From Girardia tigrina (Eukaryota): a DNA stretch of 64,000 bases. The stretch is from positions 1-64,000 of the forward strand of contig MQRK01249555.1 in the NCBI GenBank assembly GCA_001938485.1, written 5' to 3'. Made by a program: the position numbers. Position 1 is the first letter of the stretch. Each line of letters begins with the position of its first letter. This document shows positions 15,001 to 18,000 of the stretch, piece by piece.

Positions 15001-18000
15001 GTATTTTCATGATATAAATGACATAATGATTACATAAACATTGCTTTGATATATAAACGCGAGTATATGATTGTTAATTCAGTCTGATGATGACGGTTGA
15101 TCCGTCGAAATTAATCACAATAAATTCTGATGATCCTTTTTTGTAATTTGTTTAATAATTAATTTATTTTTTACTTTCTTATTTTTTATTCATTTATGTA
15201 ATAATTGATTCACTAATTTATTTATGAATCTGTGTTGATTACACAATTTCGTTTCGAATTAGGGTAATAACTGGCGGAATGGATGAATAAAATTGTTAAT
15301 TAATTAATAAAAAATGAAATAATTAATTATTAATTGATTGAAATTCAATCAAATCAAATTTATTCATTTATTTAATAAATAATTTATTTAATAATTCATT
15401 TATTCTTTACTTTATTTACATTTTATTCATTTATGTAATAATTGATTTATTGATTCACTAATTTATTTATTCAATGATTGAATAAATAAATTAATTATTT
15501 AATGAATGAATGAACTAATTTAAGAAAGAATAAATAAATTAGTGATTAAATTATTACATAAATGAATAAAAAGTAAATAAAGTAAAGAATAAATTAATTA
15601 TTAAATAAATTATTTAATAAATAAATGATTAAATAAAAGAATAACTGTATAATTAAATAAATAATCTTAAATAATTAAAAATAAAAAAATAAAGTAATTA
15701 AATAAATAAATCTACACAGATTACATAATATGTGGGGGCAGTATAACACTCGTTCCCGTTCCAATATTTTTTTATTAAAATTATTTTTTTAAGTATTTGA
15801 TTTCGTAGACCTTTTAATTCTAATGTTTTTTTAATGATATTAAAAATATGTAAATAATTATTTTAAATAATTTATAAATGTATATTTTTATAGTAAATTA
15901 TTTGGTAAATTTTCAATAATTTAATTTAATTTCCGTCTACATGTTTTTTGAATTTTTAAAATATTTTTTTATTTTTTTTAATTATTGTTTTTTTTCAATT
16001 AATATTTGATAAATTCAAAATATGATTTTCCTAAAATAAAAATTTTGTTCCTATCAATATTTATTAATTGTTTAATTATTCGATTTCGAGAATTTAAAAT
16101 AAAAGATTATTTTTAGAAAAGAATTAAAATAATGTATTAAAAAATAACAGAATTAAATTTTTAATAAAACCAAAGACAATTAAAAATTTTCCAAATGAAT
16201 ATATAATAATCAATACTAAATGTATTGTACATAATAAAATAAAGAAAATCCAAAAAAATCAATAAATGAACAAATTATTGTTTGCTGTAATCATATTAAA
16301 TTAATTACCAAAAAAATTTTTTTACTTCAATCCAAATGGTATTCTGTAATTTCGGAAAACTTTCGAAAAATTCATTCAATAAATAAACTCCATTTAAAAT
16401 TATAGGTAAAAATTCATTCAGTGAATTTTCAATAATTTCACGAAAATCGATTTTATAACTCGTAACGATTTTACGCTTTTCGATTTTAACAATCGATGAA
16501 AATTTCATTTTAGCAATTGATAAACCAAAAGTGACAAAAAAACCGGTTTTAGTTTTCAATTAATTTTACCACAATATTTTTCAAAAATGTAAACTAATGG
16601 TGAATATTTAAACAAAATTGTTTATATTTTCTTCGAAAATAATCAACAAGATAAGATTTGAATGATGTATTTTTTTAACAAAATATCTACATTTATTTTT
16701 CAAAGCCTTTACAAATATTTTTTTGCAAAAAATAGAATATTTAAATATTAGTTGTTGAAGATATTATGATTGGTCTTGGATTGACGTGTTCGATTGTTGG
16801 CGCAGGAGCAATTAAGAAAAATATTTGATTAGTATCAGGTAAAATAGAATTGAAATCATTGGAAGATGATGATGAATTTTCCGCAACTTTTTGTCTATTG
16901 TTGTTTTGATAGTCTTTATTTAATTTACTTTCGGATTTATTCGAATAATTATCGGTAACTTTTTTAGTAGAAGACGAATCATTGATATTTTGTCCTTTTG
17001 AATGAATTTTTAAATGTCTTTTACGTTCATCTGATCTGGCAAATCGTTTATCACATATTTGACAGAAGTATGGCTTTTCTCCAGTATGTGTTCTTATATG
17101 TGTTGCTAAGTGGTCTGAACGACTGAAACATCTTTCACATTCAGAACATTTGAAAGGTTTTTCTCCTGAAAAAATAATACATTCACACTAATGCTTAGAA
17201 ATGTAATTTAACAATTAAAATTGTAATTCTAGTTTAAAATTATTTTTCAGGTGCAATAAAGACTATATAATAATGTGCAACACTTTATTTAAATGAAAAT
17301 TGTTAACATAATAAAATTCGAATACCTTGAGAATTCTAACTAAGCACAAGTAAAATAATCCTTTAAAGTACACTAAAATTTTGATGTAAAAATTAAGCCA
17401 AGGAATTTTAACATATAATGAAATTTACATTAAATATTTCAAATTAGGTAATTCGTGTGCTTCTTATATACATTTACATTATATATAATTCCAAAGAAAA
17501 AATAATGATAAGAATGTATGAGGCTCTAAATTAACTTGTTATAAATATAATTATAAAAAGTTATAATGGATGGTGAAAGGTCGATAATCTAGGTTTTCCG
17601 AGAATCAAAGTTAATGGGCATATTCTACTTTTGCTTAATTGTAATCAAAAATATCAAAAGTATAATTGTTAGAGACAAGTGATGAGATTCAATTTTTGGA
17701 AATAATTGTTTATTCTGATCAAGGATTTTAAATACAATCAAACTCCTTTGTCTTTTTTTCTGAAGAAGAAAGATTACATAAAATATTCCAATATTTCATA
17801 AGTAGAAGATTAGCATTGTCACATATCTCATTAAAGAATCAAAATGAAGTAAAAAAGAATAGATCCCCAAAATATTTTTTGCGAAAGTCAATAATGGAAT
17901 AATATAAAAAAAGTATGTGAAAAGCCAATAAAGAATTAAAACCAAATAAATAAAATGATTAATTTATTGATTTGATAAAATTGATATTAGAACTATAAAA

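What the first reader, a model, noticed from the sequence alone, without database searches (positions are those of the whole stretch)
16326..17165. Pseudo-helicase starts 232 bp after the egr stop: possible dicistronic or co-induced immediate-early unit
Seen: egr TAA at 16741, AATAAA at 16697-16692, and the next gene's ATG at 16508 on the same strand. Both genes have 3-12 kb introns packed with transposons, yet this spacer is tiny and transposon-free. The last AG before the ATG is CATTAG at about 16574. Known: EGR genes are immediate-early or wound-induced, and SL trans-splicing resolves operons in nematodes and occurs in flatworms. Inference: the dead helicase may be made from the egr primary transcript (operon or read-through), coupling an RNA-processing decoy to the EGR response, or its promoter lies inside the egr last exon/3' UTR.
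Basis: partly seen in the sequence, partly recalled or inferred. Interest (0 to 1): 0.7.

Follow-up and report, generated by a model that had tools for sequence, protein, structure and literature searches.

The report
EGR gene beside a dead helicase
An EGR transcription-factor gene is followed 232 bases later, on the same strand, by a gene for a helicase-like protein that has lost its ATP-using parts; whether the two are transcribed together could not be tested here.

Summary
The coordinates hold on the minus strand. The egr stop is TAA 16743-16741, AATAAA is 16697-16692, the next ATG is 16508, and the spacer is 232 nt with no repeat elsewhere in the window. One detail is wrong: the last AG before the ATG is 16595-16594 (CATTAG 16599-16594), not about 16574.

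The upstream gene is a true EGR, with Zif268-type recognition helices. The downstream gene is a four-exon, all-phase-0 DEAH/RHA derivative of 641 codons. It has no P-loop, its motif II reads NNYH, and its motif VI reads IKSGFVGN. The same dead motifs occur in its only three close relatives among 1.84 billion representatives.

Exon 1 (16508-16326) shows no sequence homology and no coding-statistics signal. It is nevertheless the only good ATG-to-donor candidate upstream of exon 2, which has no usable ATG. A two-chain fold test places it in the empty strand positions of the truncated first RecA domain (ipSAE 0.63, best control 0.00).

The spacing meets the ≤300 bp criterion used for flatworm operon candidates. 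The taxon, SL trans-splicing, read-through and co-induction all stayed untestable. My ranking:
- own start site in the spacer, about 0.5
- operon, about 0.25
- exon 1 wrong, about 0.2

The parts
23630..23968 (-). egr exon with zinc finger 1 (…YQCNEKNCSKTFSRSDELTRHKRIHS). Probable acceptor AG is 23970-23969. The donor is TCAG|GTTCTA after 23630, phase 1.
   Evidence: ORF 23553-23984; zf-C2H2 hit; sequence; splice strings. The 5' boundary is inferred only.
16741..17165 (-). egr last exon: zinc fingers 2-3 ([16 protein letters not shown]), an N/S-rich tail and the stop TAA 16743-16741.
   Evidence: Residues 1-56 align with residues 31-86 of Early growth response protein 1 (4x9j_A), E 1e-32.
16692..16697 (-). 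AATAAA, the only canonical poly(A) signal of the spacer. It starts 44 nt after the egr stop.
16509..16740 (-). 232-nt spacer between the egr stop and the next ATG: 97 T, 89 A, 25 G, 21 C. Its only ATG (16692-16690) overlaps the AATAAA.
16621..16626 (-). TATAAA, about 30 nt upstream of 16595. Possible core-promoter element; about one such hexamer is expected by chance in DNA this A+T-rich.
   Evidence: The function is inferred only.
16594..16632 (-). The two AG dinucleotides downstream of the likely cleavage site: 16632-16631 (preceded by tcttatcttgttgattattttcga) and 16595-16594 (CATTAG). These are candidate trans-splice acceptors if the organism uses spliced leaders.
   Evidence: The function is inferred only.
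16326..16508 (-). Candidate exon 1 of the helicase-like gene: ATG plus 61 codons, donor GAA|GTAAAA, phase 0. Predicted to supply strand-helix-strand (PIILN … TIWIE) to the first RecA-like domain, without a P-loop.
   Evidence: Searches support it. Searches give no homology or coding-statistics support.
13270..16325 (-). Intron 1 (3056 nt). It holds a roughly 1.5-kb element with 159-bp inverted ends (14216-14370 and 15599-15756, 95.6% identical) and a GIY-YIG ORF on the + strand.
12166..13269 (-). Exon 2 (368 codons): degenerate motifs Ib to VI and the winged helix. The acceptor ttttag|CCA lies in an in-frame TAG. The first in-frame Met is residue 211. The donor is GAG|GTTTTA.
7967..8146 (-). 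Exon 3 (60 codons): start of the ratchet (HA2_C) domain, phase 0 at both ends.
   Evidence: DEAH profile positions 450-512, E 3e-8. HA2_C scores 21.5 bits against a cut-off of 21.3. Both junctions match the spliced relative P0002.
1923..2381 (-). Exon 4 (152 codons plus TAA 1925-1923): rest of the ratchet domain and the OB fold.
   Evidence: DEAH profile positions 523-661, E 3e-6. OB_NTP_bind scores 24.0 bits, below the 29.5 cut-off. Sequence.

Best explanation
Two separate protein-coding genes lie tail-to-head on the minus strand.

The first is an EGR-family zinc-finger transcription factor. Its mRNA most likely ends 10-30 nt after AATAAA 16697-16692.

The second encodes a lineage-restricted DEAH/RHA-derived pseudo-helicase of 641 codons in four exons, with all introns in phase 0. 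It keeps the RecA1-RecA2-winged-helix-ratchet-OB layout. It has lost the P-loop and the catalytic residues of motifs II, III and VI, so it cannot hydrolyse ATP. If it acts at all, it acts by binding. This last step is inferred.

Its first coding exon is 16508-16326. About 150-170 nt therefore separate the egr cleavage site from the next start codon.

I commit to the downstream gene having its own transcription start inside this spacer, for example about 30 nt below TATAAA 16626-16621. Its upstream control region would then overlap the egr last exon and 3' UTR. Being so close could make the two genes share regulatory input. This is inferred, not shown.
For: EGR identity:
- The three recognition helices are [16 protein letters not shown] and RSDERKRH.
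- Fingers 2-3 align with EGR1 at E 1e-32.

Helicase descent:
- The exon 2 ORF matches HrpA (E 6.5e-9) and DHX35, DHX15 and Prp43 in the PDB.
- A profile built from 12 DEAH proteins hits 3 of 3509 window ORFs, and these are colinear: positions 151-398, 450-512 and 523-661.

Dead motifs, shared by the window, P0002 and P0003:
- DEAH becomes NNYH, NNFH or NNLY.
- SAT becomes LTY.
- QRxGRxGR becomes IKSGFVGN, VRSHYLSN or MRTHYAHN.
- No GK[ST] occurs in exon 1.
- No ORF in the 64 kb matches profile positions 1-150.

Selection:
- Relatives at 47% identity keep open frames, and P0002 keeps the same exon junctions.

Exon 1:
- Exon 2 has no in-frame ATG before residue 211.
- Of 18 phase-0 ATG…GT candidates between the egr stop and exon 2, only 2 have a GTRA donor. 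This one is the longest, and the other lies inside the transposon.
- Two-chain fold test: ipSAE 0.63 (runs 0.63, 0.58, 0.67), best of 3 controls 0.00.
- In the tool's calibration that mark was reached by 51 of 78 solved complexes and 2 of 108 mismatched pairs. On eukaryotes it was 39 of 65 and 2 of 126.
- The runs agree in at least 89% of contacts, and the partner's pLDDT is at least 73.
- Exon 1 residues 35-39 lie parallel between exon 2 residues 79-83 (motif III strand) and 98-101. Residues 57-60 lie parallel to 42-45 (motif II strand).
- These are the Walker-A strand and the following strand of the RecA-like sheet (strand order recalled, not computed).

Spacer signals.
Against: Against exon 1:
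- No relative of the exon 1 peptide was found among longer or near-length proteins.
- Its best DEAH-profile hit is E 37 at an unrelated position.
- hhalign gives score 14.4 at unrelated columns, and 7 of 38 control peptides from low-GC ORFs score higher.
- An ORF of 84 codons arises in 194 of 2000 shuffles of 13270-16740. Six other low-GC ORFs of that length or more lie in presumably non-coding DNA of the window.
- Codon-usage score is -0.163, against 0.006 to 0.264 for the five accepted exons. 10 of 38 control ORFs score as high or higher.
- GC is 0.246 and the F/L/I/N/K/Y fraction is 0.57, against 0.30-0.39 and 0.39-0.45 in the four exons measured.
- An ATG-free 183-nt leader occurs in 115 of 1215 low-GC stretches.
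- The relative P0002 starts inside the exon 2 equivalent, without any exon 1-like part.

Limits of the fold test:
- It used unrelated natural proteins as controls, not A+T-rich pseudo-peptides.
- A pass may reflect likeness to the RecA fold only.

Against an own promoter:
- TATAAA is expected by chance in this composition.
- No promoter model for this unknown organism exists here.
- The spacing equally fits an operon.
Confidence: 0.5

Rival explanations
1. The pair is a two-gene operon. One primary transcript runs from the egr promoter through the spacer. The egr mRNA is cleaved after AATAAA. The helicase-like mRNA gets its 5' end by spliced-leader trans-splicing at AG 16632-16631 or 16595-16594.
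For: - Same strand with a 232-nt gap between coding sequences. The 2025 flatworm study defines operon candidates as same-strand genes 300 bases or less apart. In S. mansoni it reports intercistronic distances with a median of 99 bp and a mean of 233 bp over 45 pairs (PMC12582326, section 14).
- In Macrostomum lignano the repeat-adjusted spacing between trans-spliced genes peaks near 100 bp (PMC8629364, passages). Here the distance from AATAAA to AG is 60 or 97 nt.
- The AG at 16632 follows a pyrimidine-rich run.
- The spacer is the only short, repeat-free interval among kb-sized, transposon-bearing introns.
Against: - The taxon is not established, and spliced-leader trans-splicing is absent from insects and vertebrates (PMC7986045, passage).
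- No SL RNA or any other Rfam family was found in the window.
- For free-living flatworms other than Macrostomum there is 'no firm estimation' of genes in operons (PMC8629364, passage). My searches listed no paper describing triclad operons.
- AG dinucleotides and U-rich runs are expected in DNA that is 80% A+T.
- No transcript evidence of any kind was available.
Confidence: 0.25
2. 16508-16326 is not an exon, so the tiny spacer is an artefact of ab initio reading. The real 5' end would lie elsewhere. One option is another small exon in 13270-16700. Another, in a flatworm, is direct trans-splicing onto the exon 2 acceptor, whose phase 0 would let a spliced leader ending in AUG supply the start codon.
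For: - All sequence-level tests of exon 1 are null.
- The exon 2 acceptor AG (13271-13270) is part of an in-frame TAG. The exon starts exactly on a codon and has no ATG before residue 211.
- Flatworm leaders end in AUG, and that AUG can act as the initiator. It is in frame in 28% of trans-spliced S. mansoni transcripts (PMC9851317, passages citing Cheng et al. 2006; PMC12582326, passage).
- P0002 and P0003 begin inside the exon 2 equivalent.
Against: - The two-chain fold test passed: ipSAE 0.63 against a best control of 0.00. In calibration the mark was reached by 51 of 78 solved complexes and 2 of 108 mismatched pairs. The runs agree in at least 89% of contacts, and the partner's pLDDT is at least 73.
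- That model places exon 1 where the truncated RecA1 sheet lacks two strands.
- Among 18 phase-0 candidates it is the only one outside the transposon with a GTRA donor.
- Without it the protein would lack both the Walker-A strand and the following strand of its first domain.
- The taxon, and so the AUG-ending leader, is not established.
Confidence: 0.2

Closest known systems
Candidate operons of flatworms (Schistosoma, cestodes, Macrostomum) and SL2-type operons of C. elegans
   Same: Two genes on one strand lie under 300 bp apart. The first gene's poly(A) signal sits about 60-100 nt upstream of AG dinucleotides that precede the second gene's start codon (PMC12582326 section 14; PMC8629364 passages).
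   Different: There is no evidence of a spliced leader on the downstream mRNA, of a polycistronic precursor, or even that the organism trans-splices. Conservation of the linkage could not be checked.
DEAH/RHA RNA helicases (HrpA, DHX35, DHX15/Prp43, Prp2)
   Same: Colinear RecA1-RecA2-winged-helix-ratchet-OB layout. The best PDB matches are HrpA at E 6.5e-9, then DHX35 and DHX15 at about 3e-5. The profile E-value for exon 2 is 2.6e-24.
   Different: - No P-loop and no TQPRR.
- DEAH is replaced by NNYH, SAT by LTY, and QRxGRxGR by IKSGFVGN.
- Pfam DEAD and Helicase_C do not detect it.
- The stretch from motif I to motif Ib is tens of residues shorter than in DEAH helicases, judged by eye from the alignment.
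Pseudohelicases such as Utp25p (a DEAD-box-like protein of the SSU processome)
   Same: Both are helicase-fold proteins that have lost their catalytic motifs and are presumed to act by binding. For Utp25p I saw only the search listing and the start of the abstract of PMC9539457.
   Different: The parent family differs: DEAD-box there, DEAH/RHA here. Utp25 is widespread. This family has only 3 close relatives among 1.84 billion representatives, and nothing is known about its partners.
EGR1/Zif268 and planarian egr paralogues
   Same: Three C2H2 fingers with the Zif268 recognition helices.
   Different: The regions outside the fingers are unrelated, N/S-rich sequence. Which paralogue it corresponds to, and whether it is injury-induced, is unknown. 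egr-3 is induced, whereas egr-5 acts in post-mitotic epidermal differentiation (PMC4716842).

Membership tests
EGR transcription factors | Three tandem C2H2 fingers with recognition helices RSDELTR / RSDHLTT / RSDERKR, as in Zif268 | tested here: met
   The helices read RSDELTRH (ORF 23553-23984), RSDHLATH and RSDERKRH. Fingers 2-3 align with EGR1 residues 31-86 at E 1e-32, and the EGR1 sequence is printed in the same output.
DEAH/RHA helicases | Motif I (Walker A, GxGKT) and motif Ia (TQPRR) | tested here: not met
   0 of 3509 window ORFs match profile positions 1-150. Exon 1 has no GK[ST].
DEAH/RHA helicases | Motif II DEAH, motif III SAT and motif VI QRxGRxGR | tested here: not met
   They read NNYH, LTY and IKSGFVGN. 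P0002 and P0003 are degenerate at the same motifs.
DEAH/RHA helicases | Colinear RecA2, winged-helix, ratchet (HA2) and OB-fold C-terminal domains | tested here: met
   Profile hits are in the correct order on exons 2-4. HA2_C scores 21.5 bits against a cut-off of 21.3. OB_NTP_bind scores 24.0 bits, below its 29.5 cut-off.
SL-resolved operon | Same strand with a short intercistronic distance (300 bp or less in the flatworm study) | tested here: met
   232 nt from stop to ATG, if exon 1 is real. The criterion comes from PMC12582326 section 14.
SL-resolved operon | Spliced leader on the downstream mRNA, and a polycistronic precursor | not testable with these tools
   No transcript data were available. 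Rfam found 0 families in the window.
SL-resolved operon | The organism belongs to a lineage with SL trans-splicing | tested here: inconclusive
   The taxon was not established. Atlas look-ups of a mariner transposase and of the egr exon gave no usable taxon. No eukaryotic genome collection was on hand.
SL-resolved operon | Linkage conserved in related genomes | not testable with these tools
   The contigs of P0003 and P0004 are 1428 and 518 nt, and P0002 has no contig.
Pseudoenzyme (pseudohelicase) | Fold retained, catalytic residues lost, and the gene kept under selection | tested here: met
   - Open frames of 368, 60 and 152 codons sit in DNA of 22-39% GC.
- Relatives at 47% identity carry the same dead motifs and the same exon junctions.
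- The fold is inferred from profiles only. The AlphaFold2 model of exon 2 was poor, with a mean pLDDT of 44.5.

The most novel reading that the evidence does not exclude
The pair is a genuine spliced-leader-resolved operon in a large, transposon-filled genome. An injury-responsive EGR and a conserved P-loop-less DEAH/RHA pseudo-helicase would be made from one primary transcript. An ATP-independent RNA- or helicase-cofactor-binding protein would then be switched on automatically with the EGR response.
Probability: 0.12. Interest if true: 0.6.

Novelty: new variant of a known kind. Interest (0 to 1): 0.35.

Why it matters
If the spacing reflects co-transcription, this would be a concrete, testable operon candidate in an organism with long, transposon-bearing introns. 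For free-living flatworms other than Macrostomum, operon use has not been quantified (PMC8629364).

Apart from that, the downstream gene defines a small, unannotated family of DEAH/RHA proteins that have lost every ATPase motif yet are conserved. This is a natural case for asking what a helicase scaffold does without its motor.

If neither holds, it is simply a closely spaced gene pair, and the finding is ordinary.

Tried and rejected
- Pfam on the exon 1 ORF and on exon 2 found 0 families.
- A word-index protein search with exon 2 among longer proteins found 1 weak hit among 4196 candidates.
- The same search with exon 1 found nothing among longer or near-length proteins.
- I asked whether the missing N-terminal helicase exons lie upstream of egr, which would nest egr in an intron. 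This is rejected: 3 of 3509 ORFs in the whole window hit the DEAH profile, and all three lie downstream.
- A PDB sequence search with the exon 4 ORF gave 0 hits.
- AlphaFold2 on exon 2 with a 4-row alignment gave a mean pLDDT of 44.5. That is too poor for a fold search, so none was run.
- Atlas look-ups made to get at the taxon returned only generic mariner and C2H2 clusters.
- Rfam at gathering thresholds found 0 families.
- Codon-usage, ORF-length, ATG-free-leader and hhalign tests of exon 1 were all indistinguishable from low-GC control ORFs.
- An egr-to-exon-1 fusion reading is rejected, because an in-frame TAA at 16562-16560 precedes the ATG.
- The bacterial promoter and terminator scan and the bacterial genome collection were not used, because they do not apply to a eukaryotic locus.
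Full report
OBSERVATION. On the minus strand the egr reading frame ends with TAA at 16743-16741. The only AATAAA of the interval is 16697-16692. The next ATG that opens a frame is 16508-16506, so 16740-16509 is a 232-nt spacer with 80% A+T. The frame from that ATG runs 61 codons to GAA|GTAAAA after 16326. 17165 is the first base of the egr last exon.

One detail is wrong. The last AG before the ATG is 16595-16594 (CATTAG 16599-16594), not about 16574, and a second AG lies at 16632-16631. 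The stretch 16250-16800 has only short A/T-rich matches elsewhere in the window. The neighbouring introns measure 3056, 4019, 5585 and 6464 nt. They carry mariner-type transposase remnants, an element with inverted ends and a GIY-YIG ORF, and other mobile-element ORFs.

THE UPSTREAM GENE. ORF 23553-23984 holds a finger with the helix RSDELTRH. The last exon, 17165-16741, holds RSDHLATH and RSDERKRH. It aligns over residues 1-56 with residues 31-86 of Early growth response protein 1 at E 1e-32. The higher-ranked hits of that search are many-finger proteins that score through repeated matches. This is an EGR.

Whether it is an immediate-early gene is unknown. In planarians egr-3 is wound-induced, while egr-5 is a post-mitotic epidermal regulator (PMC4716842, title and passages).

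THE DOWNSTREAM GENE.
- The 379-codon ORF 12130-13269 matches HrpA (E 6.5e-9), DHX35, DHX15 and Prp43.
- A profile that I built from 12 full-length DEAH proteins found hits 3 of 3509 ORFs of the whole window. They are in the right order: exon 2 at positions 151-398 (E 2.6e-24), exon 3 at 450-512, and exon 4 at 523-661.
- Nothing in the 64 kb matches positions 1-150 (the LPI box and motifs I and Ia). The missing part is therefore not hidden upstream of egr.
- The splice sites give exon 2 as 13269-12166, exon 3 as 8146-7967 and exon 4 as 2381-1923, all in phase 0.
- The 2|3 and 3|4 junctions coincide with those implied by the spliced relative P0002 (NYQ|LTELGKK and DHAE|KLKAIY).
- Motif II is NNYH, motif III is LTY and motif VI is IKSGFVGN. 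P0002 (NNFH, VRSHYLSN) and P0003 (NNLY, MRTHYAHN) are dead at the same motifs.
- Only 3 of the 39 hits among 1.84 billion representatives are close (47%, 47% and 80% identity). The other 36 are ordinary helicases at 33% identity or less, with E of 5.8e-9 or weaker.

This is a conserved, lineage-restricted pseudo-helicase, not a decaying pseudogene.

IS 16508-16326 EXON 1? Evidence against any positive signal:
- No relative of the peptide was found.
- There is no meaningful DEAH-profile hit: E 37 at an unrelated position.
- hhalign gives score 14.4, and 7 of 38 control peptides score higher.
- An 84-codon ORF arises in 194 of 2000 shuffles. Six other low-GC ORFs of that length or more lie in presumably non-coding DNA.
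- The codon score is -0.163, against 0.006 to 0.264 for accepted exons. 10 of 38 controls score as high or higher.
- An ATG-free leader occurs in 115 of 1215 low-GC stretches.

Evidence for:
- Exon 2 starts exactly at an acceptor that is embedded in an in-frame TAG, and it has no in-frame ATG before residue 211. An upstream start codon is therefore required.
- Of 18 phase-0 ATG…GT candidates (14 ATGs) between the egr stop and exon 2, 2 have a GTRA donor. One of the two lies inside the transposon, and the other is this exon.

The spliced model was searched exon by exon, and the joined protein was neither searched nor folded. Instead exon 2 and the exon 1 peptide were folded as two chains.
- The verdict supports binding. 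ipSAE is 0.63 (runs 0.63, 0.58, 0.67), and the best of 3 controls is 0.00.
- In the tool's calibration the mark was reached by 51 of 78 solved complexes and 2 of 108 mismatched pairs. On eukaryotes it was 39 of 65 and 2 of 126.
- The runs agree in at least 89% of contacts, and the partner's pLDDT is at least 73.
- PIILN (residues 35-39) lies parallel between IVLLT (79-83, motif III strand) and SFII (98-101). TIWI (57-60) lies parallel to SIII (42-45, motif II strand).
- From my recollection of the RecA-like strand order 5-1-4-3-2, these are the Walker-A strand and strand 2. Exon 1 would then be strand-helix-strand with 'NG' in place of the P-loop.
- The junction IE|PNESQAI resembles TQ|PRRVAAI. 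That last comparison was made by eye, not by a score.

Caveats: the controls were natural proteins, not A+T-rich pseudo-peptides, and a pass can reflect likeness to a known fold. I put exon 1 at about 0.75-0.8.

THE SPACER. The interval after AATAAA contains a pyrimidine-rich run ending in AG 16632-16631, then TATAAA 16626-16621, then CATTAG 16599-16594. No further AG or ATG follows until 16508. Every one of these is expected by chance in this composition. They fit an own core promoter about as well as they fit a trans-splice acceptor 60-100 nt below a poly(A) signal.

LITERATURE.
- Flatworm operon candidates are defined as same-strand genes 300 bases or less apart. S. mansoni intercistronic distances have a median of 99 bp and a mean of 233 bp over 45 pairs (PMC12582326, passages, whole of section 14).
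- In Macrostomum the spacing peaks near 100 bp. For other free-living flatworms there is 'no firm estimation' of operons (PMC8629364, passages).
- Schmidtea polychroa uses spliced leaders (PMC10899757, passages).
- Flatworm leaders end in AUG, which can initiate translation (PMC9851317; PMC12582326).
- Hydra also trans-splices. Insects and vertebrates do not (PMC7986045).
- My searches listed no paper describing triclad operons.

WHAT STAYED OPEN.
- The taxon.
- Any transcript evidence.
- Microsynteny.
- The genome-wide distribution of intergenic distances.
- The supplementary tables of the papers cited.

VERDICT. The anatomy is real, and the 'pseudo-helicase' call is right. The 232-nt spacing is probably real. 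The dicistronic or co-induction idea is a legitimate candidate but is unsupported by any direct evidence. I rank an own start site in the spacer at about 0.5, an operon at about 0.25, and a mis-called exon 1 at about 0.2.

Noticed in passing
window 14216-15756: A roughly 1.5-kb element in intron 1 has 159-bp inverted ends (14216-14370 and 15599-15756, 95.6% identical). It carries a + strand ORF with a GIY-YIG domain (14749-15012, 25.6 bits against a cut-off of 22.6).
   Followed up: partly
window 6773-7700 (-), 18418-19432 (-), 22290-23472 (-), 46857-47522 (-): Four mariner-like transposase remnants lie in the window, all on the minus strand. Pfam Transposase_1 confirmed three of them (6773-7645, 18699-19316, 46857-47522). 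The fourth (22290-23472) was judged by eye only. Three of the four lie in introns of the two genes.
   Followed up: partly
window 29511-32835 (+): A run of broken ORFs resembles the gag-pol of an LTR retroelement. RVT_1 scores 29.4 bits, just under its 29.6 cut-off. The integrase-like ORF got no Pfam hit.
   Followed up: partly
window 40400-41511 (+); 27342-28643 (-); 25519-25947 (+): Three further mobile-element ORFs were seen:
- a hAT-type element (Dimer_Tnp_hAT, E 5e-18)
- a pogo/Tc5-type element (HTH_Tnp_Tc5, E 1e-10)
- a DDE_1 fragment
   Followed up: partly
window 13269-13271 and exon 2: The exon 2 acceptor AG is part of an in-frame TAG. The exon begins on a codon boundary and has no Met before residue 211. 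In a flatworm this would allow a leader-donated AUG to start translation.
   Followed up: partly
window 1923-16508 (-): All three introns of the helicase-like gene are in phase 0. The egr intron 23629-17166 is in phase 1 and splits the linker between fingers 1 and 2.
   Followed up: no
P0002, P0003, P0004: The pseudo-helicase family has only three close relatives in 1.84 billion representatives. None carries a descriptive name. P0004 (104 aa, 80% identical) may be a paralogue or come from a close species.
   Followed up: partly
window 24000-64000: The 5' exons and the start of the egr gene were not located. No other host gene was recognised in the remaining 40 kb.
   Followed up: no
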